In this document: positions 1 through 17,561 of the stretch, piece after piece | Numbering within the stretch: the stretch's first letter is position 1 | How the letters are laid out: the number at the start of each line of letters is the position of its first letter | Origin: a virus | Length of the DNA: 38,072 nt | UHGV virus genome: UHGV-0213309 | Direction: 5' to 3' (one strand) | Program-made: the position numbers and the translations under genes | The notes under the pieces: generated by a model | What the model was told of the DNA's origin: nothing | Seen by the model: only the letters and a program-made list of their open reading frames with translations | Database searches by the model: none

Positions 1-888
1 ATGGCAAGAGAGGTAGATTTAGGATCAATTATCGGACCACAGGGTGAAACAGGACCGACTGGTAAATCAGCGTATCAGGTATGGCTTGCACAGCCTGGAA
101 ACGCAGGAAAAACAGAAGCACAGTATATCGCTTCCCTAAAAGGCGAAAAGGGAGCAACCGGAGCGACAGGCCCACAGGGACCAACCGGAGCAACCGGAGC
201 GACTGGACCACAGGGAGAAAAAGGAGCAACTGGAGCGACAGGTCCACAGGGACCAACCGGGGCAAAAGGAGATAAGGGAGATCCGTTCGCAATCGCAAAA
301 ACGTTCGCCTCCGTGTCAGCAATGAATTCTGGATTCTCCTCAGATGGAGTGAAAGAAGGACAGTTCGTCATGATCGACACAGGAAATGTCAATGATGCCG
401 ATAATGCGAAACTCTATATAAAAGGAAGGACAGCATATACCTATATTACAGATCTTTCAGGTGCTACTGGAATGACAGGCCCACAGGGACAAAAAGGAGA
501 TACAGGGGCTAAGGGAGCAACCGGAGACAAGGGAGCAACTGGAACACGTGGCAGCAGATGGGACGCAGGAACAGCAATCACGGGAACAAGTACAACAGCA
601 ACAGTATTTCCAGGTTCAGGAATTACAGATACATTAGTGAATGATATGTATTTGAATACATCTACAGGGTGTACATACAGATGTACTGTAAGTGGAGCAG
701 CGTCAGCAGCTAAGTGGGTATATGCAGGAAGTCTGAAAGGAAACACGGGAGCAAAAGGAGATAAGGGAGCAACAGGAGCAACAGGCCCACAGGGAGCAAC
801 CGGAGCGACAGGAGCAACCGGTAAGGATGGACAGACTCCGACATTCAAGATCAGCAATGGACACTTGATCGCAGTATACGAAAGCTAG
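1..888 (+). CDS. Collagen-like (Gly-X-Y) repeat tail fibre protein; paralog of 901..1917 and 37352..37999
   Basis: Long [16 protein letters not shown] Gly-X-Y runs. Internal module (aa ~180-250) homologous to N-terminus of next ORF. C-terminal ...[16 protein letters not shown] motif shared with ORF 37352..37999. RBS AAGGAAGGA lies at the very end of the window (circular junction). Confidence 0.75.
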
Positions 889-3525: not shown

Positions 3526-3698
3526 CAGAACAGACAATTAAAGAAACAATTAAGAGTTTCGCTTACGGACTTTCAGCAAAAGAAATCTCCGACAACGAAG
3601 GAACATCACTTGAAGTTATGGAGAAGTTTGCAGAGGAACACGCTGCGGAGATTGAGCAGAAAAAAGCAGAGCTGAAAGAAGGTGGCTGGTATGAGTAA
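3522..3698 (+). CDS. Small hypothetical protein between holin and lysin
   Basis: Short ORF MTEQTIKETIK... overlapping the holin 3' end and the lysin start. Coding-like codon usage. Confidence 0.35.
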   Translation: MTEQTIKETIKSFAYGLSAKEISDNEGTSLEVMEKFAEEHAAEIEQKKAELKEGGWYE

Positions 3699-4761
3699 GT
3701 TAATCATTGATGTTAGCTATCATAATGGAGTGATAAATTGGGAAAAAGTAAAAGCATCCGGTTGTGCCGGAGCTATTCTTAGATGCGGATATGGAGATGA
3801 TATCACATCACAGGATGATAAGCAGTGGATTCGCAACCTTGCTGAGTGCGAAAGACTTGGTATTCCGGTAGGAGTGTATCTGTACAGCTATGCGACTTGT
3901 GACAGACAGGCTCAGAGCGAACTTGACCACATCTTGAGATTGATTAAAGGTCATACATTCCAGTTGCCGATTTTCCTTGACGTGGAAGAACCTGGCACAC
4001 AGAACTATGCTCCTAGATGCTGTGAAATCGTCTGCGAAGGACTAAAAGCAAATGGATATACTCCGGGAATCTACGCTTCACTGAGTTGGTTCAACAACCA
4101 TCTTGGCAGTGTATGTGGCAAGTACATTGAATGGATGGCAAGGTATAAGAATCTCCCGGAAGATACATACAAAGGTCAGTATGCTATCTGGCAGTATTCT
4201 TCTGATGGACAAGTAGATGGAGTCAGTGGAAGAGTAGATGTCAACTATTGCTACATGGAGTTCGGTGGCAGTGCTACACCAGTAACACCGTCAGCACCAT
4301 CTAAGCCGGTAGAAAAGAAAGACTTAGGACAGGTCGATATTACATATCAGGCTTTCACAGACAGATGGTGGCCACCAGTGGTGAATAAAATCGACTGGGC
4401 TGGAAAAAGAGATAATGTTTCGATTAAGTGGCTTGCCATCAAGGTAAGCAAAGGAAGTATCCGCTGTAGAGTATACACAAGAAAGAATGGCTGGTTGCCA
4501 TATCTCACATTCGGCAACAGCTATAACCTGAATGACAAGGTAAATGGAATCCTCGGAGATGGTTCAGAGATTCTTGCCGTAGAACTGTACTACATCACAC
4601 CGGAAGGATATAAGTACAAGATGGTTCACTACAGAGTTTCTGTGAAAGATAACTCGAACTTCTACAGTGAGCAGATCGATACGCTGAAAGCCAATGGTGC
4701 AGACGGCTATGCAGGAGACAAATACAGATTCATTGACAAGTTCCAGGCTTGGATTGAGTAA
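3691..4761 (+). CDS. Endolysin, GH25 muramidase domain plus C-terminal cell-wall-binding region
   Basis: RBS GAAGGTGG then ATG. N-terminal IIDVSYHNGVINW...GxxxxILRCGYG...YLYSY motifs typical of Glyco_hydro_25 lysozymes. Followed by a hairpin terminator. Confidence 0.85.
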   Translation: MSKLIIDVSYHNGVINWEKVKASGCAGAILRCGYGDDITSQDDKQWIRNLAECERLGIPVGVYLYSYATCDRQAQSELDHILRLIKGHTFQLPIFLDVEEPGTQNYAPRCCEIVCEGLKANGYTPGIYASLSWFNNHLGSVCGKYIEWMARYKNLPEDTYKGQYAIWQYSSDGQVDGVSGRVDVNYCYMEFGGSATPVTPSAPSKPVEKKDLGQVDITYQAFTDRWWPPVVNKIDWAGKRDNVSIKWLAIKVSKGSIRCRVYTRKNGWLPYLTFGNSYNLNDKVNGILGDGSEILAVELYYITPEGYKYKMVHYRVSVKDNSNFYSEQIDTLKANGADGYAGDKYRFIDKFQAWIE

Positions 4762-4799
4762 GAGCATAAAGTAAAACAATAGTGAAAAGTGTGTAATAA

Positions 4800-4839
4800 G
4801 ATACCCTCAGAGTTAAACTCTGGGGGTATCTTTTTATTT
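4800..4839 (+). terminator. Rho-independent terminator after lysis cassette
   Basis: GATACCCTCAGAGTT / AACTCTGGGGGTATC inverted repeat followed by TTTTTATTT. Confidence 0.8.
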
Positions 4840-4842
4840 CAA

Positions 4843-4896
4843 AAATACACCGAAAACAGTGTTGACAATACACCGAAAATGGTGTATTGTATAGTT
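4843..4896 (+). promoter_or_regulatory. Sigma70-like promoter (TTGACA-17-TATTGT) flanked by two perfect 12-nt direct repeats ATACACCGAAAA
   Basis: TTGACA at 4862-4867. Direct repeats at 4845-4856 and 4868-4879. ACACC..GGTGT inverted element over the -10 region. Lies upstream of the low-GC cassette. Confidence 0.6.
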
Positions 4897-4931
4897 GTAA
4901 CAAAGAAGAGCACATGAAAAGGAGAAAGACC

Positions 4932-5315
4932 ATGACAGTAGAGGAAATCAGAAATTTAATCAGTGAAGCAGAATATGATTACATTGGAATCAGAGCAGAT
5001 AGCAGAGATTATCAGATTGGTGAAGTGATGGATAACTCACATCAGCTCTTCCAGGATCCTCAGTATACAGACTTTGAATGTACAGAGTTGTTATATCCAT
5101 ACATTTCAGAAGGTCCTTATACCGGATTCTATGATGGCGGAGAACTTGATGGCACATGTGCACTTGAAGTATCTGAGAGCAATATCGAAGAAATGATTGA
5201 AAGAGTAACGTCATATGGAAACAAATATTATTTGATTGGTGGAAACTCAATGGAATACGGAAATGACGATGACGAGATTATTATTAATGATGCAGAAGTG
5301 ATTGCAAGAATATAG
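4932..5315 (+). CDS. Hypothetical protein (first gene of low-GC accessory cassette)
   Basis: RBS AAAAGGAGAAAGACC-ATG. Acidic protein MTVEEIRNLISEAEYDYIG... with no recognisable family. Confidence 0.5.
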   Translation: MTVEEIRNLISEAEYDYIGIRADSRDYQIGEVMDNSHQLFQDPQYTDFECTELLYPYISEGPYTGFYDGGELDGTCALEVSESNIEEMIERVTSYGNKYYLIGGNSMEYGNDDDEIIINDAEVIARI

Positions 5316-5327
5316 AGGAGAAAAATA

Positions 5328-6158
5328 ATGAATGGAAATATATGGAAAGAAGTTCTGAAGCAACATGAAATGCTAGGTATTGAAAATATAATTCCTGTAT
5401 CTCATATAAGAATAAGACCAGATATAGGAATATTATTAGACGATAATGGCAATTTTGTAGGTGCAACTATAATCAAAAACGAAAGATGCTCAATCCCATG
5501 TACTATAGACTCAGAAAGTAGAACTAATGGAATATCGCCACATCCGATACACGATAATATGAGTTATATTTGCGGAGAATATCCAAATTATGAAAAACGA
5601 CACGATACATATATGAAACAATTGCAAAGTTATACAGAAAATGTAGATGATAATCTTGCAAAGAGTGTATATAGATATTTGAAAAAGAAAACAATCCGGC
5701 TTGATATCAAAAATTTGACAAAGCAAATAGAAAACATATCAGAAGAAAAATTGATGGTCGTATTCGCAACGTTAAGTCATCGAGACACGATAAGCAAAAA
5801 ATGGACAGAATACTATACATCTACGCTTGATAGAAATGGTATATGTGGAATAACAGGAGAAAAGGATCATATCCCGGATAAATATCCAAAAGGAATAAGA
5901 AATCCGTCTGATCAAGCAAAATTATTTATCGCCAATCCAAAAAAAATGGATTCAATGCCTACGAATGTGCCTGGTTATATAGCATCTCAGAAAATTATAC
6001 ATACGCTGCAATTTATGATATACGAGGGGAATTCTTGGGCATACCAAATACTAAAAGACAATGTAGATACAATCCCGGAAACATGGAAGGAATGGGTAGA
6101 AGAATATCAAGCTAAAAATGGAATACAAAAAAGGGAGGATGGGGAGAAAAATGAATAG
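5328..6158 (+). CDS. Hypothetical protein, very AT-rich (second gene of accessory cassette)
   Basis: RBS GAGGAGAAAAATA-ATG. 276 aa. GC visibly far below the phage average. Overlaps the next gene by 8 nt (translational coupling). Confidence 0.6.
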   Translation: MNGNIWKEVLKQHEMLGIENIIPVSHIRIRPDIGILLDDNGNFVGATIIKNERCSIPCTIDSESRTNGISPHPIHDNMSYICGEYPNYEKRHDTYMKQLQSYTENVDDNLAKSVYRYLKKKTIRLDIKNLTKQIENISEEKLMVVFATLSHRDTISKKWTEYYTSTLDRNGICGITGEKDHIPDKYPKGIRNPSDQAKLFIANPKKMDSMPTNVPGYIASQKIIHTLQFMIYEGNSWAYQILKDNVDTIPETWKEWVEEYQAKNGIQKREDGEKNE

Positions 6159-6786
6159 AACAGAAAAGGCCTGTATTAAATGTGGCAAGCTCTTTCACGG
6201 AGGTTCTGATAAATTTTATTGCGATGATTGTGCGAAAGCTTTAAAAAGTAATGTTATGCGTACAAGGACATGTAAAATGTGCGGAGTTGAATTCCTTGGT
6301 GGTCCGCGTGCATCCTATTGTCCAGAATGTCGCAAAATTCGGCAAAAAGAAGCAAGCGCAAGAGCAAGGAAAAGAGGTGGAGCTGTTCGGCCAATTGGAA
6401 GCATGGATAAATGCGAATGGTGCGGATCTGAATATATTGTTAATTCCGGAAGGCAAAAATATTGCTCGGATGAGTGTCAAAGAGAGGCGGTGCTAGAGTG
6501 GCAACGGAAACACAAAGAAGGATATAACAAGATATCTGGGCAAGATATTAAAAAAGCGCAACGCCGAAAAGAGAAAAAGAAAATCTGTGTATATTGCGGA
6601 CGTGTATTCTCTAGTTCTACACCAACTAATTTGTGCTCTGAATATTGTCGAAAGAAAAATAGGCAGATCAAAGAATATCAAGCAGAAATAAAACGCGGAA
6701 AGAATGTAAATATAGGCAGGTTACTGAACGAGCAGAAAGAATACCAATCAAAAGTTGAAACTAATGAAATAGAAAAAACAATATAA
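6151..6786 (+). CDS. Protein with four tandem CxxCG-x(10-12)-YCxxC zinc-ribbon modules separated by basic linkers
   Basis: Strong RBS AAGGGAGGATGGGGAG. Repeats CIKCGKLF..YCDDC, CKMCGVEF..YCPEC, CEWCGSEY..YCSDEC and CVYCGRVF..LCSEYC. Arg/Lys-rich spacers. Confidence 0.65.
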   Translation: MNRTEKACIKCGKLFHGGSDKFYCDDCAKALKSNVMRTRTCKMCGVEFLGGPRASYCPECRKIRQKEASARARKRGGAVRPIGSMDKCEWCGSEYIVNSGRQKYCSDECQREAVLEWQRKHKEGYNKISGQDIKKAQRRKEKKKICVYCGRVFSSSTPTNLCSEYCRKKNRQIKEYQAEIKRGKNVNIGRLLNEQKEYQSKVETNEIEKTI

Positions 6787-6851
6787 AATTCAAATCTGCT
6801 ACCAATTAAAAAACAGATCAGAAAGAATAGAAAGTTATTTGGGTGATTAAA

Positions 6852-7058
6852 ATGGGAAAAATGACATATAAAATTGATGTGCTAGACATGCTAAAAAAAG
6901 AAGGGTACACGCAAACCACATTAAGAAAAGAAAAGCTAATCGGTCAAGATGCAATACAGAAAATGAGAAAAGGAGAAATGATAGGGATTAACGTATTGAC
7001 AACGGTATGCAAATTACTGGATATGCAACCAGGAGATATTATAGAGTATCGGAAGTAG
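6852..7058 (+). CDS. Small HTH (XRE/Cro-C1-like) DNA-binding protein
   Basis: GGGTGA RBS then ATG. ~68 aa with a helix-turn-helix signature TQTTLRKEKLIGQDAIQKMRKGE. Last gene before the candidate attP. Confidence 0.55.
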   Translation: MGKMTYKIDVLDMLKKEGYTQTTLRKEKLIGQDAIQKMRKGEMIGINVLTTVCKLLDMQPGDIIEYRK

Positions 7059-7067
7059 CGAGCAATA

Positions 7068-7098
7068 AAATCCCCCAGAACACTAGGTTCAGGGGGAT
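7068..7098. terminator. Hairpin (ATCCCCC..GGGGGAT) downstream of accessory cassette
   Basis: Imperfect inverted repeat AATCCCCCAGAAC...GTTCAGGGGGATT. Weak T-tract. Confidence 0.4.
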
Positions 7099-7173
7099 TG
7101 AATATTGTATCATCTATTTTATATAGTATTTTGATAGAAGAAAATACGAGTTTCTTCATATTATTATGTAATT

Positions 7174-7221
7174 CATTTCCAAAAGAATTGGGATAAAGAA
7201 TAATCCCGTTTCTTTTGGAAA
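7174..7221. other. Perfect 13-bp inverted repeat ATTTCCAAAAGAA / TTCTTTTGGAAAT around a 22-bp core; candidate attP for the serine integrase
   Basis: Sits in the AT-rich non-coding gap between the last plus-strand accessory gene and the 3' end of the minus-strand recombinase gene. That is where attP is expected if this is an excised prophage. Confidence 0.4.
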
Positions 7222-7235
7222 TAACAAAAAAACCT

Positions 7236-8786
7236 TTATTTGCGCGGGATTCTGGGCTTTATGGTCAATTCAAAGTTAGGCTCATTCAGATGACCGCGCT
7301 TATTTTTCGTTAATTTCTTGTATTCTATAGATTCTATGAGTAATTTCAACAACCGGTTGCGTTCCGGAATAGATAAATCCCAATAACAGGAAAGCAGATC
7401 TTCACAAGCCGGCAGGAACTGTTCTATATTGGCTTCTCTTTGGCGTTCCTTGTCAAGTTCGAGTTTCAGCTGGGCAACGTTTGATTCAGCTTCAGAAATT
7501 CGGTTTTGTAAACTGTCAGATCGCTCAAGAAAGACTTCTGTCGAGTAGACACCTTGTTCAAGCAGATCATACATGGTTCCCTTTTGCCGTAGAAGTTGAT
7601 CGAGTGTCTGTTGAGCTGATTCCAAAAGAACTTCTTTTTCCGGAATAAGACTCTTACTTGGCATCTGACCACTCAGACGATATCCTTCAACCCAGTCAGA
7701 AAGCGCGTTATAAACTTCTCGCTCAACAAGATCCAAAGGGCTGCCAATGGTAGGACAATCATATGTACTGCACAACATCAGATCATAAGGCACACGACTG
7801 GCGGTTCCGGAAGGCGGCCGGCGAATCATTTTCTTTTTGCACTCACTACAGACAATGATTCCGGCAAGTGGATTTTTGATAATGTTAGAACCGGCAGGTT
7901 TTGGGGATCCACAGCCAAGATAACTCTGAGCTTCTGCAAATACATCGTGATCGATCAAGCGCGGATGCCGGCCGGAAACAATGGTATAGTCACTGGTTCT
8001 CGGACGCGTGGTTGTGAGAACACCGTTTTCAACTGTCCTGACCACTTTTCGTTCGCCGATCTTAACGCATTGATCATACACAACATTAGAGAGAATTCCA
8101 CGGACGGTACTCTCACTCCAAAGTTTGGAATTACGCGGCTTTGTACCGTAACTGTTTAAAGTGCGAGTGATCGACCGGATACCGACACGTTCCGGACCGG
8201 TAAACATAGAAAAGATAAGCCGCACAACAGGAGCCTCGTTTTCATCAAAAGCAAGAGTCCATCCTTTCTCTTTTTCAAGTTTCACTCTCCGGAAACCGTA
8301 TGGCGCGGAGTTGTATGGCCACTTTCCCTCAGAGATAGCGGCATAACGTCCATTCTGCATCCTGCGCTTGATCGTCTTATATTCACGACGACTCATGAAT
8401 AATCCAAACTCAAAATACTCTTCATCGAATTCATTGGCAGGATCATAGGTTTTGGAAGGCGTGATGATTAGTGTGTTGGAATACTGAAATGCTCTCTGTA
8501 CAACTCCCTGATCTATTGTATCACCACGAGCAAGACGTTCTACTTCCATAACGAGCACACCGTCCCACAGGTTTTGTTCTACTTCGTGAAGTAACTGCTG
8601 CATAACAGGACGCGCAGCTATGGTTTCTCCGGACACAACTTCTCGATAAATATTGCTGATAATAAGGTTATTTTTCTTAGCAAGAGAAAGAAGTGCACGT
8701 TCGTGTCTGGCAAGAGTTTCCCCTTCACCATGCTGCTCGGCTTCAAGATCCTTTCTTGATTTCCTCAAATAAATACAATACGACAT
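7236..8786 (-). CDS. Large serine recombinase (integrase)
   Basis: RBS GGAGGTGATATC-ATG on minus strand. N-terminal resolvase-type catalytic domain (YLRKSRKD...). Recombinase domain, Cys-rich zinc ribbon and C-terminal coiled coil. ~516 aa. Confidence 0.9.
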   Translation of the reverse strand: MSYCIYLRKSRKDLEAEQHGEGETLARHERALLSLAKKNNLIISNIYREVVSGETIAARPVMQQLLHEVEQNLWDGVLVMEVERLARGDTIDQGVVQRAFQYSNTLIITPSKTYDPANEFDEEYFEFGLFMSRREYKTIKRRMQNGRYAAISEGKWPYNSAPYGFRRVKLEKEKGWTLAFDENEAPVVRLIFSMFTGPERVGIRSITRTLNSYGTKPRNSKLWSESTVRGILSNVVYDQCVKIGERKVVRTVENGVLTTTRPRTSDYTIVSGRHPRLIDHDVFAEAQSYLGCGSPKPAGSNIIKNPLAGIIVCSECKKKMIRRPPSGTASRVPYDLMLCSTYDCPTIGSPLDLVEREVYNALSDWVEGYRLSGQMPSKSLIPEKEVLLESAQQTLDQLLRQKGTMYDLLEQGVYSTEVFLERSDSLQNRISEAESNVAQLKLELDKERQREANIEQFLPACEDLLSCYWDLSIPERNRLLKLLIESIEYKKLTKNKRGHLNEPNFELTIKPRIPRK

Positions 8787-8939
8787 GATATCACCTCCGT
8801 ATATATTATGTAAAAAAGTACAAAAATAACAGCCATACACAGAACGTAAGTTCTGATTGTGCGACTGCACCGAAGATGATACAATATTCTTTGGTAAGAC
8901 AGTATCTCTTCGGAGTTACTAAAGCACATTGGCGTGTGC

Positions 8940-8985
8940 TTCCCCAGTTGACCGTTCCTGTTGGCGCAGGAGCGGTTTTTATTTA
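8940..8985 (+). other. Two adjacent hairpins sharing loop TTGGCG (AAGCACA..TGTGCTT and CCGTTCCTG..CAGGAGCGG plus T-run)
   Basis: Lies in the non-coding gap upstream of the recombinase start. Second hairpin is terminator-like on the plus strand, yet no plus-strand gene is upstream. Confidence 0.35.
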
Positions 8986-9600
8986 AGATATAAAACCATC
9001 ATCTTTTATCTGGAATATCTTTTTGTGTAGTGTTATCGTTGTCTTGAAACTTCTGGCCATCAAGAAGAACAGAGCTCCGAATATAATAAAGAAAGCACCG
9101 ATTCCGACAGACGTTGAGAGTCCGGCAAGTCCGAAAGCCAGTAAGACAACTGACATGATCATGGCGATTACACGGCACAATGAGAATGTAGAAATTTTTG
9201 TGCGTTTTCCATTTGCTTTTATGATTGAATCTCTGTCCTGATCAAGTACACATCCAGTTTGAACAAGCGAAATGTATTTTTTCTTCTCACTTGATGTCAG
9301 CACTTTCTCAAGCTTAGATGGAATCCGTACCTCAGGGATTTCTGCGGCAGATCCACTGAAAGAACTGTTGGAAGATGAACGCAATCCATTTCCACCGATC
9401 CCACGATATACATCACCGACTCCAAAGGTTGTCTTGTTATAGACTTTATTGTATGCTGCCTTCTTCGGATCCTTTATCCATCCGACACCTTTCTGTCCGT
9501 ATCCAGGAGACACGGATTTCTTAACAGCTCTTTTTACTTTTCCAGTTGTCTGAGCCTTAACACTTTTCTTCAAGCTCGGCGTTCTCATTCCTACTTTCAT
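8983..9600 (-). CDS. Lysine-rich protein with two C-terminal transmembrane helices
   Basis: RBS AAGGAAAAGGTGAT then ATG (minus). Basic N-terminal half (KKSVKAQTTGKVKRAVKK...). TM segments VIAMIMSVVLLAFGLAGL and IGAFFIIFGALFFLMA. Overlaps the 3' end of the channel gene. Confidence 0.5.
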   Translation of the reverse strand: MKVGMRTPSLKKSVKAQTTGKVKRAVKKSVSPGYGQKGVGWIKDPKKAAYNKVYNKTTFGVGDVYRGIGGNGLRSSSNSSFSGSAAEIPEVRIPSKLEKVLTSSEKKKYISLVQTGCVLDQDRDSIIKANGKRTKISTFSLCRVIAMIMSVVLLAFGLAGLSTSVGIGAFFIIFGALFFLMARSFKTTITLHKKIFQIKDDGFIS

Positions 9601-10362
9601 CGTTATCACCTTTTCCTTCATGTAGGCACTGCAGAGTTTTGCAGATTGCCTGAATATCATCGTCTGACAGTTCATCAAAGTTGTTCAGCTGGCTCTGTAT
9701 CGAGCTGATCAGAATATCTTTTGCGGTAGATTTTTCTTTGTCAGTTGTCTTTTGAAAGAAAACTGCTGTGATTGTGCTAGTCAGAGAACCGATTAGACCG
9801 ATTCCAACAAGCATCAGAACAGTTGCTATGATTCTTCCCGGAATTGTTGATGGTGAGATATCTCCATATCCAACAGTTGTCGCTGTAACAAAACTCCACC
9901 AAAAGCCATCTGAAAAGCTCATTCCTTCCGCATAATGGATGGATATTCCACCGATTGCAATACAGATCAGCGTTGCTCCGACCATATACTTAAATCCATT
10001 CAAGTCAAAGAAGAACTTTATATGCTTGTAGAGCCTTGCAAATCGTGCGGACGCTTTTGCTAGCTTCAAGAGTTTTAGCATCTTGAATACTTTGAATACC
10101 CTGAAAACTTTGAACAAAGAGTTGAACGGAATAATTGCAATCAGATCCAGTATGTTATTCCGAAAAAACTCTTTTTTATTTTTAGCAATCAGCAATCGTA
10201 ACGCATAGTCTACAATAAATATTGTGTTGATCGCAAAGTCAATGTCGCGCTGAATTGTAGAACATCCAGTTGTCATGTCATAGATTGCAAAGTAGACAGC
10301 TACGATTGCAAGTACGCTGAAAAGGAGATCATACAGAACAGAAAGTCGTTCTTTGTGCTTCA
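9557..10362 (-). CDS. Voltage-gated K+ channel (6TM; S4 with K/R every third residue; selectivity filter TVGYGD)
   Basis: RBS AGGAGAA 9 nt before ATG (MKHKER...). S4 FKVFRVFKVFKMLKLLKLAKASARFARL. Pore helix/filter WWSFVTATTVGYGDISP. S6 GRIIATVLMLVGIGLIG. Cytoplasmic C-tail follows. Confidence 0.8.
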
Positions 10363-10520
10363 TAAAACAAATTCTCCTGATTTCATTTAATATAATAAGC
10401 ACCCCATCTCTATGCAAGAACAAATGTTCGATAAAACCATTGATTTCTAAATACAAATGTCGTATGATGAAATCAAGGAATTTCGAAGAGTGTTCTTGCT
10501 GGGAACGGAGGGACTACATA

Positions 10521-13133: not shown

Positions 13134-13898
13134 ATGATGGCTACAAAGAGAGTAACACACACCTTCCGGAAGGGAGACATCCTGGAGGTGAAGGAATACC
13201 ATGATGGCAGGTATGGAGCAAGAGGACTGCCAAGAGAAAAGAAGAGAAAGCCGACACCGGAGCAGATGGCTGTTGTGAATGCTATGAATAAAGCAGAGAC
13301 AGCCAGACACAGATTGTTGGAGTACTTTGGAAAGGGAGACTACTTCCTGACATTGACGTACAAGGTAGAAGAGAGACCTCCGGACATGGCACAGGCGAAG
13401 AAAGATTTCACGAAGCTGATCAGTAAGCTAAGAGCAAGATACAAGAAAGAACAGATTGAGCTGCGCTGGATCAGGAACATTGAGAAAGGAACGAAGGGAG
13501 CATGGCATGTGCATCTCGTTCTGACCGGGGGCAGGGATACGATCCGCTGGGTGGAAGAATGTTGGCCGCATGGTGGAATCTATGCAGAACAACTGGAGAA
13601 AAGCAAATACTACGAAGAGGATTTCTCACAGCTCGCATCCTACATCACCAAAAACGAGAAGGTGGGAGAAAAGAGGGAGGATGGAAAGAGGGACAAGCCA
13701 AGACTTAGCGAATCCAGTTACAGCACTTCGCGGAACATGCCATTGAAGCCGCCAAAGAAAAAGAAACTGGCAAGATGGCCAAAAGAAATCAAACAGAAGA
13801 ATGGCTATTACATTGCCAAGAGCTATGAAGGAATCAATCCGGCTACAGGATTCAAATACCGGAGATATACATTGATCAGATTGAACAGGAGGATTTGA
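13134..13898 (+). CDS. HUH-type rolling-circle replication initiator (Rep)
   Basis: Motif I-like FLTLTY, HUH motif WHVHLVLTGG, downstream Tyr-containing SYITKNEK. Basic C-terminus. Confidence 0.65.
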   Translation: MMATKRVTHTFRKGDILEVKEYHDGRYGARGLPREKKRKPTPEQMAVVNAMNKAETARHRLLEYFGKGDYFLTLTYKVEERPPDMAQAKKDFTKLISKLRARYKKEQIELRWIRNIEKGTKGAWHVHLVLTGGRDTIRWVEECWPHGGIYAEQLEKSKYYEEDFSQLASYITKNEKVGEKREDGKRDKPRLSESSYSTSRNMPLKPPKKKKLARWPKEIKQKNGYYIAKSYEGINPATGFKYRRYTLIRLNRRI

Positions 13899-14833: not shown

Positions 14834-15414
14834 GAGTATACAAAGGATTCAATAAAAAAATTCAGGCAAAACACGGAAAAGGGACATTTCAGTACGAGAA
14901 AGGGAAGACCTACAAAGAAGAGAAAAGCAAAACAAGATCCACCGGATTCCATGCGGCGGAGTATATCCTGGATTGCCTGCAGTGGTATCCGATCGATGGA
15001 AAGAACAAATTCTTCCTGTGCGAAGCTGGCGGAAGTATAGACGAAGAGGATGGATGCTCGATGGTCGTATCTACAGAGCTGACATTATTAAGAGAACTGA
15101 CACTTATGGAGATTGCAATGGCGGCAATGGAATATATGATCATACATCCAAAGAGGGCATGGGAGAAAAGAGAAAGAGGTGCATACGCAGAAAAAGAGCG
15201 GTCAAAAGCAATCGGAGAGACAAAGATAGCGATCGCAAGGGGAAAACATCCGGAAGTGAAAGGCGAATACGGAACCGTGATCGGACTGATCGTAGAGGAC
15301 GAGAAAGGCAAGCCAGTGGCAGCAGGCGTGAGGAATGTTGACGGAATACAAGCGAAAGCGCATCAGATCTATTCCATGACAGAAGAAAGAGAATGGGTGG
15401 AGGTGCAGAAATGA
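14830..15414 (+). CDS. Conserved hypothetical phage protein (MRVYKGFNK... family)
   Basis: ATGA overlaps with flanking genes. N-terminal motif VYKGFNK..GxFQYEKGKTY...GFHA is recurrent in Firmicutes mobile elements. Confidence 0.5.
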   Translation: MRVYKGFNKKIQAKHGKGTFQYEKGKTYKEEKSKTRSTGFHAAEYILDCLQWYPIDGKNKFFLCEAGGSIDEEDGCSMVVSTELTLLRELTLMEIAMAAMEYMIIHPKRAWEKRERGAYAEKERSKAIGETKIAIARGKHPEVKGEYGTVIGLIVEDEKGKPVAAGVRNVDGIQAKAHQIYSMTEEREWVEVQK

Positions 15415-17561
15415 AACGAAAAGCGATTGAGTGCGTTGCACCGAAGAAACCGGCAGGAAAAGGACTCACAGCCACGCTACAGGAGTTGAAGAAAATCCTG
15501 ATTCTAAATATCTATCAGGCGAAGGAACTGCTGGTGCGGTACTGTATCAACTATGAGACAGGGGAACATGAGTACTGGAAAGAGCAGCATGGTTGGAGAA
15601 AAGGCGGTATCCTGAATGCACTGAACAAGGACTGGCGAGATTGGGAATGGAGAACATATGACGATTATCCGAAATTGCAGGAGAAAGACGCAAACAGGAT
15701 CAAAGAATTGATTAAACACAGAGCGTGGAACAACAGCCCGTGGGAGAGAATCAACGGATTGGAACATAGCTATAACAGCGAGATTAGGGAAAGATGTGAA
15801 ACAAACCGGAAAATGAAACTCATGAACCTAATGAGAAAAGTTCCAGGTCGTCCGAAGAATTTGAGAGAATGGTTCTTTGAACAGGCAGCAGGAGAGGATT
15901 ACATGTTCCGGAACAGGGAAACGAAAGAATTTGTCTGTACGAACTGCGGAGAATCCAGCTGGCCGGAAGAAATCAAGCGACAGGACGGTGGGAAGAAGAT
16001 CCGGCACAATGATATGGTATTCTGCCCTTCCTGCAGAAAACTGGTGAGGGCAAAGACAAGAACAGACCATATCGAACAGAAATGGAAGAGCTGCTATCTC
16101 ATCCAGCCAGTAGACGAAGATACAAGCGTACTCCGGATCATAGAAGCAAAGGTCGGATGGGATAATGGAAGACATTATGTCGAGTTTGGAGATGAAATCA
16201 GAATCCTGCTGTACAAGGTCTACTCCAACAGAAAATTGAAGAAGACATACATGATCTATTATGAGGACTCCTGGGATGGATGGACAAAAGAAAACCGGAA
16301 AAACCTAAGAGCAAGAGAAGGATACTTGTATCCAGAAGAATTTGGCCAGATATTAGACGGAACCACTTACAGCGAAGCAACAAGAGTCCTGGAGCATTTA
16401 TCGAAGACGGGAATGGAACTGAACTACAACAGACTTGTGGCAGGGACAGGACAGATGAAAGGATATGCACAGAAGATCGAGTACCTGGCAAAAGGACGCT
16501 TTTGGAATCTGCTGAGAGATACGATCGGCTGTACAGACTATCCGGGATATCCGACACAATACTATGGACCACTGGACATGAGAGAGGAAAGCATTGAGGG
16601 AATGTTCAGAATCCAAGACCGTCAGAAGATCAACAGGATCCGTGACGAGCATGGCGGGAACAGAATGGTACGCTGGATGCAGTATTCGGACGAGACAGGG
16701 CAGAAAATCTCGAAAGAGACGGCGCAGTGGATGATAAAGAATGAGATAGAACCAAGTGGCATCCGGGGACTGGAAAAATATATGAGTCCACAGAAGATTA
16801 TGAACTACATCGAAAGGCAGAAAAAAGAACAATATGCAGGAATGACGGCAAAAGCTGTGCTTGAAGAATATAAAGATTATCTCAATATGTGCGAGGCATG
16901 CTGCAAAAATATGGCTGACGAGATGGTCTATCGTCCAAGAGAGTTAAAACGCAGACATGATGAAGTTGTTGTAGACCGGCAGCAGATACAGATCTTGAAA
17001 GAACTGGAAAACAATGCAGAGGGAAAAGAAGCCTATGCACAGGAAATGCGGCAGAAGTTTCCGGAAGCAGAAGAGATCCTGAAAGAGATTAAGAGCCGAT
17101 ATGAGTACGAAGACGAAGAGTATAAGATCATTGTACCGAACACGTTAGTGGATATCGTGAAAGAAGGACGTGCGCTGCATCATTGTGCCGGCAGCAGTGA
17201 ACGATATTTTGACAGGATCGAGAGCAGAGAGACATACATTTGTTTCCTGCGGAGACAGGAAGCACCGGGAATCCCATTCTACACGATTGAAGTAGAGCCA
17301 GGAGGCACAATCAGACAGCACAGAAGCTATTATGACGAAGAGCCGGGAATCGAGGAAATCCGGGTATTCCTGAAAAGCTGGCAGAAGGCAATCAGAAAAC
17401 GTCTGACAGAGGAAGATAAGAAGTTGGCCAAGATCAGCAAGATCAAGAGAGAAGCTAATATTGCAGAGCTGGAAGAGAAAAAGAATATAAGAGTCCTTCA
17501 GGGATTGGCGGAAGATTTCCTTGAAGCAGAAGAGATAGAAAAAGAACTGGAGGCGGTTTGA
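15411..17561 (+). CDS. PcfJ-like protein (large, 716 aa)
   Basis: RBS GGAGGTG then ATG. C-terminal conserved block EGRALHHCAGSSERYFDRIESRETYICFLRR...PFYTIEV resembles the PcfJ domain. Cys clusters CTNCGES...CPSCRK. Confidence 0.6.
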   Translation: MKRKAIECVAPKKPAGKGLTATLQELKKILILNIYQAKELLVRYCINYETGEHEYWKEQHGWRKGGILNALNKDWRDWEWRTYDDYPKLQEKDANRIKELIKHRAWNNSPWERINGLEHSYNSEIRERCETNRKMKLMNLMRKVPGRPKNLREWFFEQAAGEDYMFRNRETKEFVCTNCGESSWPEEIKRQDGGKKIRHNDMVFCPSCRKLVRAKTRTDHIEQKWKSCYLIQPVDEDTSVLRIIEAKVGWDNGRHYVEFGDEIRILLYKVYSNRKLKKTYMIYYEDSWDGWTKENRKNLRAREGYLYPEEFGQILDGTTYSEATRVLEHLSKTGMELNYNRLVAGTGQMKGYAQKIEYLAKGRFWNLLRDTIGCTDYPGYPTQYYGPLDMREESIEGMFRIQDRQKINRIRDEHGGNRMVRWMQYSDETGQKISKETAQWMIKNEIEPSGIRGLEKYMSPQKIMNYIERQKKEQYAGMTAKAVLEEYKDYLNMCEACCKNMADEMVYRPRELKRRHDEVVVDRQQIQILKELENNAEGKEAYAQEMRQKFPEAEEILKEIKSRYEYEDEEYKIIVPNTLVDIVKEGRALHHCAGSSERYFDRIESRETYICFLRRQEAPGIPFYTIEVEPGGTIRQHRSYYDEEPGIEEIRVFLKSWQKAIRKRLTEEDKKLAKISKIKREANIAELEEKKNIRVLQGLAEDFLEAEEIEKELEAV

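What the first reader, a model, noticed from the sequence alone, without database searches (positions are those of the whole stretch)
4843..7098. Separately promoted low-GC accessory cassette between endolysin and attP: candidate defence or moron island
After the lysin terminator there is a consensus-like promoter (TTGACA-17-TATTGT). Its -35 is bracketed by two perfect 12-nt direct repeats ATACACCGAAAA, an operator-like arrangement. It drives four plus-strand genes of markedly lower GC than the phage core. These are an acidic 128-aa protein, a 276-aa protein with no recognisable family, a 212-aa protein built of four zinc ribbons (translationally coupled by an 8-nt overlap) and a small HTH protein. 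The cassette is followed by a hairpin and the candidate attP. The location at the prophage end, the compositional shift, the autonomous regulated promoter and the nucleic-acid-binding architecture fit a horizontally acquired anti-phage or regulatory system. I cannot assign it to any described system.
Basis: partly seen in the sequence, partly recalled or inferred. Interest (0 to 1): 0.7.

Follow-up and report, generated by a model that had tools for sequence, protein, structure and literature searches.

The report
Phage anti-CRISPR operon with truncated Cas8c
This phage carries a small, self-regulated, mobile gene cassette whose central gene is a cut-down copy of a bacterial CRISPR protein (the front third of Cas8c), so it is most likely a counter-defence (anti-CRISPR) module, not a defence system, and it belongs to a class of viral gene that is already catalogued but whose Cas8c members are untested.

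Summary
The sequence features are real. There is a terminator, then a TTGACA-17-TATTGT promoter carrying two copies of ACACCGAAAAYRGTGT, then four plus-strand genes, then a hairpin. The cassette is 35.4% GC against 43.0% elsewhere, the lowest stretch of that size in the window. One claim is wrong. The 276-aa protein does have a family: it is a homolog of only the N-terminal domain of the type I-C CRISPR large subunit Cas8c (PADLOC 1e-32; Foldseek hits only Cas8c chains). It keeps the PAM-reading loop but lacks the wedge, adaptor and Cas11-like domains. The window has no other cas gene and no array. It belongs to a separate clade of short phage proteins. In one sub-clade an AcrIC5-family gene lies directly upstream and a small HTH gene directly downstream. 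Another variant is an HTH::mini-Cas8c fusion. The promoter repeats are palindromic operators over the -35 and -10, as in acr-aca operons, and the last gene is a 68-aa HTH. The whole unit sits at a different position in other phages. Best reading: a mobile, Aca-type autoregulated anti-defence operon whose mini-Cas8c poisons or decoys the host type I-C system. A 99%-identical gene is already listed, untested, in Katz et al.'s table of orphan viral cas genes. Verdict: new member of a known kind, moderate interest.

The parts
4798..4832 (+). Intrinsic terminator of the upstream lysis module. It marks the upstream boundary and is not part of the mobile unit.
   Evidence: 16-bp stem followed by a T-run. 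Inverted repeat I2, 90% complementary. The sequence upstream of about 4843 is unrelated to the flanks of the same cassette in other phages.
4844..4890 (+). Promoter with two palindromic operator-like sites. O1 is 4847-4862 (ACACCGAAAACAGTGT). O2 is 4865-4890 (ACAATACACC-gaaaat-GGTGTATTGT). The -35 TTGACA is at 4862-4867 and the -10 TATTGT at 4885-4890.
   Evidence: Promoter scan matches 10 of 12 positions. Direct repeat D1 and perfect inverted repeat I5. The motif occurs only here in the window, 2 found against 0.08 expected. In relatives O1 is a perfect palindrome, ACACTGAAAACAGTGT. That these are operators for gpD is inferred, not shown.
4932..5315 (+). gpA: 127-aa strongly acidic protein (pI 4.05). 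Its family is unknown (phrog_18666). It is a recurrent neighbour of the mini-Cas8c and a candidate co-inhibitor.
5328..6158 (+). gpB: mini-Cas8c, a 276-aa homolog of only the N-terminal domain of the type I-C large subunit Cas8c/Csd1. It is the predicted anti-CRISPR.
   Evidence: Pfam PF09709 at 2.4e-22, covering profile positions 14-223 of 559. PADLOC Cas8c at 1.2e-32, covering 16-237 of 537. AF2 pLDDT is 86.7. Foldseek against the PDB hits only Cas8c chains: 8gaf_G, 8dfs_I, 8dej_I, 8g9u_H, 8g9t_K. It is 31% identical to residues 27-241 of the nearest full-length Cas8c. It falls in a separate short clade. dN/dS is 0.10-0.18.
6151..6786 (+). gpC: 211-aa basic protein (pI 9.6) made of four zinc ribbons, overlapping the end of gpB by 8 nt. 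Role unknown; probably binds nucleic acid.
   Evidence: Cysteine pairs at 8/11-24/27, 41/44-57/60, 88/91-105/109 and 146/149-162/166. Weak Pfam DZR_2 match. phrog_1271 ('HNH endonuclease') matches at 8e-18, but only over the zinc-ribbon part of that profile (115-278 of 361), and there is no HNH domain hit. It follows gpB in two distant clades and follows gpA without gpB in L020.
6852..7058 (+). gpD: 68-aa Cro/C1-type HTH protein, last gene of the operon. It is the predicted Aca-like autorepressor acting on O1 and O2.
   Evidence: Pfam HTH_26 at 2.5e-10. A 37%-identical HTH_26 protein sits next to a gpA homolog in L011 with a different set of promoter-overlapping inverted repeats. dN/dS is 0.09-0.17. 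DNA binding is not tested.
7069..7099 (.). GC-rich hairpin (13-bp arms) just after gpD, marking the downstream boundary. Its T-run lies on the minus strand, so it may mainly terminate integrase-side transcription.
   Evidence: Inverted repeat I4, 92% complementary. Terminator-like on the minus strand. Homology with other cassettes ends at the gpD stop, before this hairpin.

Best explanation
The region 4843-7058 is a self-contained, horizontally mobile counter-defence operon of the acr-aca type, carried by a temperate phage.

- **Transcription.** It runs from a strong sigma-70-type promoter whose -35 and -10 lie inside two palindromic sites.
- **Regulation.** The last gene (gpD, a 68-aa HTH) is predicted to bind those sites as a dimer. 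That would shut the operon down after an early burst and keep it at a low level in lysogens, as Aca proteins do.
- **Centrepiece.** gpB is a Cas8c reduced to its N-terminal domain. It keeps the PAM-interaction loop and the conserved core of that domain. It lacks the wedge domain (DNA unwinding and the Cas3 'recruit loop'), the adaptor domain and the Cas11-like C-terminal domain.
- **Predicted mechanism.** gpB acts as a dominant-negative subunit. It takes the place of host Cas8c on Cas5c/Cas7c-crRNA, or otherwise competes for Cas8c's partners. The resulting type I-C Cascade cannot open an R-loop or recruit Cas3.
- **gpA.** This very acidic protein is predicted to be a second inhibitor or a partner that engages the PAM-binding face.
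- **gpC.** The role of this zinc-ribbon protein is unknown.

Shown: the homology and truncation, the orphan status, the separate clade, purifying selection, mobility of the unit, the operator-like palindromes, and the neighbourhood with AcrIC5-family and HTH genes.

Inferred: inhibition of type I-C, the poison-subunit mechanism, repression by gpD, and any role for gpA or gpC.
For: **1. gpB is the Cas8c N-terminal domain only.**
- HMM matches cover just the first 40% or so of Cas8c profiles.
- Structure search hits only Cas8c chains of type I-C Cascade.
- In a profile search of 1.84 billion representatives, the top hits are about 25 short proteins (200-300 aa) scoring 390-185 bits. Full-length Cas8c (580-670 aa) then follow at 144 bits or less. 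They always align through their residues about 5-290.
- In N. lactamica Cas8c the N-terminal domain is residues 1-259, the wedge 260-348, the adaptor 349-457 and the C-terminal domain 458-582. The N-terminal domain carries the PAM loop and a groove for the Cas3 anchor loop. The wedge carries the recruit loop (10.1101/2023.08.05.552134).

**2. The PAM-loop region is retained.** The stretch P57-C-T-x-x-S62-x-x-R65-T-N-G68...P71-H72...D76 is conserved in both the mini clade and full-length Cas8c. The D. vulgaris GNG PAM motif aligns with T66-N67-G68.

**3. It is an orphan.** The window has no other cas gene, no CRISPR array and no Rfam hit. A full-length relative, by contrast, sits in a cas3-cas5c-cas8c-cas7c-cas4-cas1 operon.

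**4. It is a distinct clade under purifying selection.** Thirty short proteins form a clade free of full-length sequences in a rough NJ tree. dN/dS is 0.10-0.18.

**5. Guilt by association.**
- In 14 viral loci of the clade that is about 49% identical, the ORF 13-18 nt upstream is an AcrIC5-family protein (Pfam PF22147, 1.9e-9 to 5.6e-10, above the cutoff).
- In 20 loci an HTH_3 gene follows immediately, next to the integrase.
- P0016 is an HTH_3::mini-Cas8c fusion preceded by a gpA homolog.

**6. The architecture is acr-aca-like.**
- The HTH gene is last, and the palindromes overlap the -35 and -10.
- Independent relatives have different HTH proteins and different promoter-overlapping palindromes.
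- This matches the Aca paradigm described in PMC13551039.

**7. The unit is mobile.** The same promoter plus four genes occurs in other phage backbones at another position.

**8. There is precedent.** Cas-derived Acrs are experimentally established: AcrIB3 from Cas5, AcrIB4 from the Cas8b C-terminal domain, AcrVIA2 from Cas3. Orphan viral cas8c genes are listed in Katz et al. Table S3. One entry is IMGVR_UViG_3300045988_008992, which is my locus L030 and is 99% identical to gpB.
Against: - There is no functional test. The host and its CRISPR type are not established for this phage.
- The window's own cassette contains no member of a validated Acr family. gpD is not assigned to a named Aca family; only the generic HTH_26 matches.
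- Identity to the nearest full-length Cas8c found is 31%. Whether gpB can dock on any real Cas5c/Cas7c is unknown.
- Strong conservation of the PAM loop is not required by a simple poison-subunit model. It may point to a different mode of action.
- gpA and gpC also occur without gpB, and 41 of about 90 gpB loci have neither nearby. The four genes are therefore not an obligate system.
- AcrIB4, the closest precedent, turned out not to displace Cas8b. Homology alone does not predict mechanism.
Confidence: 0.6

Rival explanations
1. gpB is still an anti-CRISPR but works by a different mechanism: it is a free decoy for Cas3. The Cas8c N-terminal domain contains the groove that receives the Cas3 'anchor loop' and contacts the Cas3 helicase domain. 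An isolated N-terminal domain could present that surface all the time and sequester Cas3 away from Cascade. AcrIF3 does something similar when it mimics a Cas8f domain to trap Cas2/3.
For: In the N. lactamica structures, Cas3 helicase contacts the Cas8 N-terminal domain. The anchor-loop groove there is exposed only after full R-loop formation. gpB equals that domain alone. AcrIF3 is a precedent for mimicry of Cas8f.
Against: The Cas3 HD domain also needs the wedge-domain recruit loop, which gpB lacks. Conservation of the groove residues was not examined. The most conserved part of gpB is the PAM loop rather than any identified Cas3 surface.
Confidence: 0.15
2. gpB is not an inhibitor but repurposes the host system. 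One version: with host Cas5c/Cas7c/crRNA it forms a hybrid Cascade that still reads PAMs and binds targets but cannot call Cas3. Another version: it is a sponge for acidic PAM-mimic proteins such as AcrIC5 or gpA. The upstream acidic protein and gpB would then be a functional pair and not two independent Acrs.
For: The PAM-interaction loop and R65 are invariant in the mini clade. A small acidic ORF (pI 4.0-4.8) lies 5-49 nt upstream of the mini-Cas8c in most clades. It is a gpA-family protein, an AcrIC5-family protein, a 77-aa protein or a 209-aa protein. AcrIC5 is predicted to bind the PAM site of Cas8c (10.1101/2025.06.06.658234).
Against: This is entirely inferential. The wedge needed for DNA unwinding is missing. 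Acidic neighbours are expected anyway in multi-Acr loci. gpB also occurs without an acidic neighbour in part of the 46% clade.
Confidence: 0.1
3. One reading: the cassette is a prophage-encoded anti-phage defence or superinfection-exclusion system built from nucleic-acid-binding proteins.
For: The position is moron-like, with an autonomous promoter and low GC. gpC and gpD probably bind nucleic acid. Prophage ends often carry defence genes (general knowledge).
Against: gpA, gpC and gpD match no PADLOC model. There is no recognisable effector such as a nuclease, NTPase, pore or NADase. The only defence-related homology is to a truncated Cas subunit that cannot work alone. Relatives sit beside AcrIC5-family genes. 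They also occur in phages that carry Tad4 and Tad2-like counter-defence genes elsewhere in the same loci.
Confidence: 0.07
4. gpB is a decaying remnant of a cas8c gene picked up by imprecise excision and has no function. The cassette is simply miscellaneous early or regulatory genes.
For: The gene is truncated relative to Cas8c. It fails the NCBIfam equivalog cutoff, 51 bits against 218.65.
Against: dN/dS is 0.10-0.18. The family is large and length-conserved, spans 35-99% identity in hundreds of contigs, and has 28 invariant columns. It forms its own clade.
Confidence: 0.03

Closest known systems
[quoted passage not shown]
   Same: - It is an orphan cas homolog in a phage, with no array and no cas operon.
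- It forms its own clade apart from true Cas proteins.
- It lies in an accessory locus with HTH genes and, in relatives, a known acr gene.
- A 99%-identical gene (IMGVR_UViG_3300045988_008992) and five other contigs of this family appear in their Table S3 as predicted orphan 'cas8c'.
   Different: - It derives from type I-C, not I-B.
- It keeps the N-terminal, PAM-reading domain of the large subunit. AcrIB4 corresponds to the last 90 or so residues, the Cas11-like C-terminal domain.
- At 276 aa it is much larger than AcrIB4, which is about 9 kDa.
- No experimental test of any Cas8c-derived candidate was found.
Cas8c/Csd1, large subunit of type I-C Cascade (PDB 8DEJ, 8G9U and others)
   Same: It shares the fold and sequence signature of the N-terminal domain, including the PAM-interaction loop region.
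   Different: It lacks the wedge, adaptor and C-terminal domains, and therefore also the internal Cas11c reading frame. It is not in a cas operon. It is encoded by a phage. Identity to the nearest full-length protein is 31%.
acr-aca operons (Aca1-Aca14 paradigm; PMC13551039)
   Same: There is a strong promoter, and inverted repeats overlap the promoter elements. A second site lies upstream, as in about 40% of acr-aca1 operons. A small HTH gene sits at the 3' end, and the acr content is modular.
   Different: gpD matches only the generic HTH_26. Membership of a named Aca family could not be tested. At four genes and 2.2 kb the operon is longer than most acr-aca operons, and it includes a 211-aa zinc-ribbon protein with no Acr precedent.
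AcrIC5 (PF22147) and other PAM-mimic type I-C Acrs (AcrIC9, AcrIF2)
   Same: gpA is small and very acidic (pI 4.05). It occupies the position directly upstream of the mini-Cas8c that AcrIC5-family genes occupy in a sister clade.
   Different: gpA has no detectable sequence similarity to AcrIC5 or to any Pfam Acr family, and no significant match in solved structures. DNA mimicry is only a guess from its charge.
AcrIF3 (structural mimic of a Cas8f domain that traps Cas2/3)
   Same: The concept is the same: a phage protein resembling part of the large subunit.
   Different: AcrIF3 has no detectable sequence homology to Cas8f. gpB is a clear sequence homolog of Cas8c and corresponds to a different part of the subunit.

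Membership tests
Cas8c/Csd1 (functional type I-C large subunit) | Sequence match to the Cas_Csd1/Cas8c profile over its whole length | tested here: not met
   Pfam PF09709 is matched only at profile positions 14-223 of 559, and PADLOC Cas8c only at 16-237 of 537. The NCBIfam TIGR01863 equivalog scores 51 bits against a cutoff of 218.65. A true Cas8c (L029) covers 14-559 of 559.
Cas8c/Csd1 (functional type I-C large subunit) | Domain set of N-terminal domain, wedge, adaptor and Cas11-like C-terminal domain, about 580-670 aa | tested here: not met
   gpB is 276 aa. It aligns only to residues about 5-290 of full-length proteins. Domain borders are taken from 10.1101/2023.08.05.552134.
Cas8c/Csd1 (functional type I-C large subunit) | Encoded in a cas3-cas5c-cas8c-cas7c operon beside a CRISPR array | tested here: not met
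   The window has no CRISPR or Rfam hit and no array-like tandem repeat. The neighbours are a lysin, an integrase and phage genes.
Cas8c/Csd1 (functional type I-C large subunit) | PAM-interaction loop (R plus a small-residue tip such as SGS or GNG) | tested here: met
   R65-T66-N67-G68 aligns with the D. vulgaris K-G-N-G motif, and the loop region is conserved in the mini clade and in full-length Cas8c. This is sequence-level evidence only.
Cas-derived anti-CRISPR / orphan viral cas gene | A cas homolog in a viral genome with no array and no cas operon nearby | tested here: met
   At least 80 IMG/VR viral contigs carry family members. The near-identical gene is listed in Katz et al. Table S3.
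Cas-derived anti-CRISPR / orphan viral cas gene | Forms a clade separate from bona fide Cas proteins | tested here: met
   There is a score gap between short and full-length hits. In a rough NJ tree, 30 short proteins form a clade with no full-length member.
Cas-derived anti-CRISPR / orphan viral cas gene | Located beside known acr or aca genes | tested here: inconclusive
   Met in relatives: an AcrIC5-family ORF upstream in 14 loci, an HTH_3 gene downstream in 20 loci, and an HTH fusion in P0016. In the window itself only an uncharacterised HTH (gpD) and the unclassified gpA and gpC are adjacent.
Cas-derived anti-CRISPR / orphan viral cas gene | Inhibits CRISPR interference | not testable with these tools
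   This needs a plasmid- or phage-targeting assay with a type I-C system.
acr-aca operon | A small HTH (or RHH) regulator gene co-transcribed with the acr genes | tested here: met
   gpD is 68 aa and matches HTH_26 at 2.5e-10. It is the last gene, on the same strand, and no terminator-like site was found between gpA and gpD.
acr-aca operon | Inverted repeats overlapping the operon's promoter | tested here: met
   O1 (4847-4862) abuts the -35. O2 (4865-4890) spans from the -35 to the -10. The motif is unique in the window, 2 found against 0.08 expected, and conserved in relatives.
acr-aca operon | The regulator belongs to a described Aca family (Aca1-Aca14) | not tested
   No Aca library was available. 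Pfam, NCBIfam and PHROGs give only generic HTH or repressor matches.
acr-aca operon | The regulator represses the promoter | not testable with these tools
   This needs an EMSA or a reporter assay.
Known anti-phage defence systems (PADLOC-DB v2) | The component proteins match the models of a described system | tested here: not met
   gpA, gpC and gpD have no hit at E <= 1. gpB hits only Cas8c models, and only partially.
HNH endonuclease (phrog_1271), considered for gpC | An HNH catalytic domain | tested here: not met
   The match covers only profile positions 115-278 of 361, the zinc-ribbon part. There is no Pfam HNH hit. gpC consists of four Cys4 ribbons and a basic tail.

The most novel reading that the evidence does not exclude
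The mini-Cas8c may not be a plain poison subunit. It may be one half of a two-component device together with the small acidic protein that almost always precedes it (a gpA-family protein here, an AcrIC5-family protein in a sister clade). The isolated PAM-reading domain could dock on host Cas5c/Cas7c-crRNA to make a Cas3-blind hybrid Cascade. The acidic partner would plug or gate its PAM loop. Alternatively, the mini-Cas8c could act as a sponge for PAM-mimic proteins. Either way the phage would be re-wiring host type I-C surveillance, not merely blocking it.
Probability: 0.1. Interest if true: 0.8.

Novelty: new member of a known kind. Interest (0 to 1): 0.5.

Why it matters
If gpB inhibits type I-C, it would be the first anti-CRISPR derived from the PAM-reading N-terminal domain of a Cascade large subunit, and the first Cas-derived Acr against type I-C. 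Type I-C is a compact system used for large-deletion genome editing. As background knowledge, not checked here, it is also a common subtype in gut Firmicutes.

The family is abundant in human-gut Lachnospiraceae phages. It comes with ready-made comparisons: variants with and without the acidic partner, an AcrIC5-linked clade, and an HTH-fused form. These make the mechanism directly testable.

The cassette also nominates further candidates. gpA is a widespread acidic protein of unknown fold. gpC is a zinc-ribbon protein. The HTH and operator pair could be a new Aca-type regulator.

The concept itself, that phages co-opt cas genes as Acrs, is already established, and this gene is already in a published candidate list. 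The advance would therefore be incremental, not conceptual.

Tried and rejected
- **PDB sequence search with gpB.** Nothing with the single sequence. With the family profile there was nothing at E <= 0.01. Only a marginal 8DEJ match appeared at E = 0.023. The fold search was needed to make the link.
- **gpB against BFVD viral structures.** No match.
- **GenBank phage records.** No DNA or protein match to the cassette or to gpB. The family is known only from metagenomic viruses and prophages.
- **CRISPR repeats or RNA anti-CRISPRs in the window.** No Rfam hit at gathering thresholds and no array-like tandem repeats. I considered whether the ATACACCGAAAA repeats could be CRISPR-repeat-like. I judged them operators instead, because each is a palindrome overlapping the promoter.
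- **Species-representative genomes.** Only two prophage copies were found, both in Enterocloster, plus two true Cas8c in Trichococcus. The host of this phage and its CRISPR type were not established.
- **gpC as an HNH nuclease.** Rejected.
- **The Nature version of Katz et al. (PMC11991930).** It is not held, so I used the bioRxiv version and its tables.

Full report
**1. What is in the sequence**

- A GH25 endolysin (3682-4761; Pfam 4e-25) is followed by a 16-bp hairpin with a T-run at 4798-4832.
- Next comes a promoter-like site: TTGACA at 4862, a 17-nt spacer, then TATTGT ending at 4890, matching 10 of 12 consensus positions.
- Four plus-strand ORFs with Shine-Dalgarno sequences follow:
  - gpA, 4932-5315, 127 aa.
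  - gpB, 5328-6158, 276 aa.
  - gpC, 6151-6786, 211 aa, overlapping gpB by 8 nt.
  - gpD, 6852-7058, 68 aa.
- A 13-bp-arm hairpin lies at 7069-7099.
- A large serine recombinase is on the minus strand at 7236-8870.
- The GC shift is real. The region 4843-7098 is 35.4% GC against 43.0% for the rest. It is the lowest stretch of its size in the window, and the lowest elsewhere is 37.1%. Cassette genes have GC3 of 0.25-0.35 against 0.44 in the lysin.

The window as a whole is a temperate tailed-phage genome. It encodes:
- collagen-repeat tail fibres, a lysin and an integrase;
- a CI-like HTH and a replication protein;
- TerL, a portal protein and a tail protein.

**2. The promoter repeats are palindromic operators**

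The 'two direct repeats' are 19-nt copies at 4844-4862 and 4867-4885.
- Each copy is itself an inverted repeat of the form ACACYG-AAAA-YRGTGT.
- The second extends to a perfect 10+10 palindrome, ACAATACACC-gaaaat-GGTGTATTGT (4865-4890). Its right arm contains the -10, and its left arm abuts the -35 (I5).
- The motif occurs nowhere else in the 38 kb, with 0.08 matches expected by chance.
- In related cassettes the first site is a perfect palindrome, ACACTGAAAACAGTGT.

Two dyad sites bracketing and overlapping the -35 and -10, with a small HTH gene as the last gene of the operon, is the arrangement described for Aca-controlled anti-CRISPR operons (PMC13551039).

The arrangement recurs with different parts elsewhere.
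- In L011 a 37%-identical HTH_26 protein sits next to a gpA homolog. There a different palindrome (ATATTCTAA-N2-TTAGAATAT) overlaps the -10 region of the gpA promoter, and related copies lie upstream of the HTH gene.
- In L069 an 11+11 palindrome containing TATAAT lies about 40 nt upstream of the first of three ORFs that precede the mini-Cas8c (4427-4690, the AcrIC5-like ORF, then the mini-Cas8c); I did not check that it overlaps a promoter, so this example is weaker.

**3. The 276-aa protein is recognisable**

gpB matches the Cas8c/Csd1 family, but only its front part.
- Pfam PF09709 matches at 2.4e-22 (79.8 bits, cutoff 27), aligning gpB residues 19-209 to profile positions 14-223 of 559.
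- Four PADLOC Cas8c models match, down to 1.2e-32, at positions 16-237 of 537.
- The NCBIfam equivalog model scores only 51 bits against a cutoff of 218.65.

An AlphaFold2 model built on 35 family members is confident (pLDDT 86.7). Foldseek against the PDB returns five significant hits. All are Cas8c chains of type I-C Cascade structures: 8GAF, 8DFS, 8DEJ, 8G9U and 8G9T, with E from 3e-8 to 3.5e-5. Nothing else scores below E = 2.

A profile search of 1.84 billion representative proteins gives a two-tier result.
- About 25 clusters of 200-300-aa proteins score 390-185 bits.
- After a gap, full-length Cas8c of 580-670 aa score 144 bits or less. They always align through their residues about 5-290.
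- The nearest full-length protein is 31% identical over its residues 27-241.

The N. lactamica structures define the Cas8c domains (10.1101/2023.08.05.552134).

| Domain | Residues | Features |
|---|---|---|
| N-terminal domain | 1-259 | PAM-interaction loop; groove for the Cas3 anchor loop |
| Wedge | 260-348 | DNA unwinding; Cas3 recruit loop |
| Adaptor | 349-457 | |
| C-terminal domain | 458-582 | Cas11-like |

gpB therefore corresponds to the N-terminal domain alone, plus about 45 unrelated C-terminal residues.

The PAM-loop region is the best-conserved part of the family and is shared with full-length Cas8c. It reads P57-C-T-x-x-S62-x-x-R65-T-N-G68-x-x-P71-H72-x-x-x-D76. The D. vulgaris GNG PAM motif aligns with T66-N67-G68.

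**4. It is an orphan, in its own clade, and under selection**

- The window has no other cas gene, no CRISPR array and no Rfam hit.
- A full-length relative in Trichococcus pasteurii, by contrast, sits in a canonical cas3-cas5c-cas8c-cas7c-cas4-cas1 operon.
- In a rough neighbour-joining tree, 30 short proteins including gpB form a clade that contains none of the 60 full-length sequences.
- Comparisons with cassettes that are 92-99% identical give dN/dS of 0.10-0.18 for gpB and 0.09-0.31 for the other three genes. None of the four is a decaying relic.

**5. Neighbourhoods**

I scanned 109 fetched loci with the four proteins. About 90 of them carry a gpB homolog.

| Arrangement near a gpB homolog | Loci |
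|---|---|
| A-B-C-D | 14 |
| A-B (including A-A-B) | 25 |
| A-B-C | 3 |
| B-A (including C(rev)-B-A and B-B-A) | 8 |
| B alone (two of these are true Cas8c in cas operons) | 41 |

Each of the other genes also occurs without gpB.
- gpA is found with a gpD-like HTH in L011, alone in L016, and translationally coupled to gpC in L020.
- The four genes are therefore shuffled modules and not an obligate system. That is typical of anti-defence islands.

The most informative result comes from the clade that is about 49% identical.
- The ORF 13-18 nt upstream of the mini-Cas8c is an AcrIC5-family protein in 14 loci (Pfam PF22147; 1.9e-9, 5.6e-10 and 4.7e-9 in three variants; all above the 27-bit cutoff).
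- An HTH_3 gene follows immediately in 20 loci.
- The locus again lies between a lysin-like gene and an integrase.

AcrIC5 is a validated type I-C anti-CRISPR with orthologues in Firmicutes (PMC7913775).

Three further observations fit the same picture.
- Protein P0016 is a fusion of an HTH_3 domain to the N-terminus of a mini-Cas8c, and it is preceded by a gpA homolog that is 52% identical. This recalls the Acr-Aca fusion proteins mentioned in PMC13131331.
- Across clades, the ORF just upstream of the mini-Cas8c (5-49 nt away) is nearly always small and acidic, with pI 4.0-4.8. It is a gpA-family protein, an AcrIC5-family protein, a 77-aa protein or a 209-aa protein.
- The phages that carry the 92%-identical cassette also encode Tad4 and Tad2-like proteins elsewhere (precomputed Pfam).

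**6. The unit is mobile**

I aligned the window against three phage contigs that carry the cassette.
- Identity begins at about 4843, at the first operator.
- Identity ends at the gpD stop codon.
- Both flanks are unrelated.
- In those phages the cassette lies between early genes and DUF4417/terminase, not between lysin and integrase.

**7. Best explanation**

The cassette is an Aca-type autoregulated anti-defence operon. gpB is predicted to be an anti-CRISPR against type I-C.

It keeps the domain that sits at the 5' end of the crRNA and reads the PAM. It lacks the parts needed to wedge DNA open, to present the Cas3 recruit loop and to form the Cas11-like belly.

The simplest model is a dominant-negative subunit that yields a dead Cascade. 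This is analogous to AcrIB3, a Cas5 homolog that replaces Cas5.

I put about 0.6 on the operon being counter-defence with gpB acting on type I-C, and less on the specific poison-subunit mechanism. The rivals are:
- a Cas3 decoy, because the N-terminal domain carries the Cas3 anchor-loop groove;
- a re-wiring or pairing model, prompted by the invariant PAM loop, the constant acidic neighbour, and the AF3-predicted binding of AcrIC5 to the Cas8c PAM site;
- a dead relic, which the dN/dS values and family conservation rule out.

The roles of gpA and gpC remain inferences.
- gpA has no family and no fold match.
- gpC consists only of zinc ribbons. Its PHROG 'HNH endonuclease' match covers just the ribbon part of that profile.

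**8. Comparison with what is known, and novelty**

Katz et al. showed that phages co-opt cas genes as Acrs, and they listed 358 orphan viral cas genes from IMG/VR.
- Their Table S3 contains 'cas8c / CAS-I-C' entries from human-gut Lachnospiraceae viruses. One is IMGVR_UViG_3300045988_008992.
- That contig is my locus L030, which is 99% identical to gpB. The contigs of L054, L062, L102, L103 and L109 are listed too.
- GenBank also holds a cluster member named 'Cas system-associated protein [Caudoviricetes sp.]'.
- I found no experimental test of any Cas8c-derived candidate. A 2026 review lists only AcrIB3, AcrIB4 and AcrVIA2 as Cas-homologous Acrs.

The finding is therefore a new, untested member of a known kind. 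It has one real difference from the closest validated case: it retains the N-terminal PAM-reading domain, whereas AcrIB4 corresponds to the C-terminal Cas11-like domain.

**9. Limits**

- Nothing here is functional evidence.
- The host and its CRISPR content were not determined for this phage.
- The tree is a quick distance tree.
- Operator function and Aca-family membership are untested.
- I could not run multimer predictions.

Noticed in passing
window 7175-7222: A 48-bp imperfect palindrome (20-nt arms, 90% complementary, 8-nt spacer) lies 14 nt beyond the stop of the large serine recombinase gene. Its size and shape fit a serine-integrase attP, but it also scores as a terminator on both strands.
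   Followed up: no
window 8983-10456 (minus strand): Two membrane-protein genes lie in the lysogeny module between the integrase and the CI-like repressor. One is a 231-aa protein with a hydrophobic C-terminus. The other is a 299-aa protein matching ion-channel families (Pfam Ion_trans_2 2.6e-17, Ion_trans 3.9e-17). They may be a lysogenic-conversion or exclusion moron. This region has the second-lowest GC in the window.
   Followed up: partly
L033 466-1860 (protein P0002, 464 aa; 85 member sequences): This is a 96%-identical mini-Cas8c whose reading frame continues into an extra 190 or so residues with a Walker-A-like motif (IIIGKSGTGKSN). It looks like an additional P-loop gene inserted between gpB and gpC and fused by loss of the stop codon.
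   Followed up: no
L110 3501-4490 (protein P0016, 329 aa): An HTH_3 domain is fused to the N-terminus of a mini-Cas8c, preceded by a translationally coupled gpA homolog. It may be a regulator-inhibitor fusion of the Acr-Aca type.
   Followed up: partly
L080 6006-6914; L011 4372-5001; L022 3170-3883: A family of proteins with repeated 'W.C.CDCG...SCGC' zinc modules and an AP2-like C-terminus recurs next to gpB, gpA or gpC homologs in different combinations. It appears to be part of the same shuffled gene pool.
   Followed up: partly
L001-L006 (phages with the 92%-identical cassette): These genomes also carry genes with precomputed Pfam hits to Tad4 (PF25186) and Tad2-like (PF11195) anti-Thoeris families, several kb from the cassette.
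   Followed up: no
protein P0056 (203 aa): A mini-Cas8c is truncated after about 140 residues and joined to a segment with a precomputed Pfam OrfB_Zn_ribbon (PF07282) hit. It looks like an insertion-sequence (TnpB-type) disruption of the gene.
   Followed up: no
window 151-265, 736-818, 1171-1227: Collagen-like GGAGCAACN tandem repeats lie inside the tail-fibre genes (Pfam Collagen and Gp53-like_C in 901-1917).
   Followed up: no
window 15393-17561: A 722-aa early-region protein carries a PcfJ-like domain (1.8e-29), next to a Rep ORF2/G2P-type replication protein at 13134-13898. This is an unusual replication module for a tailed phage.
   Followed up: no
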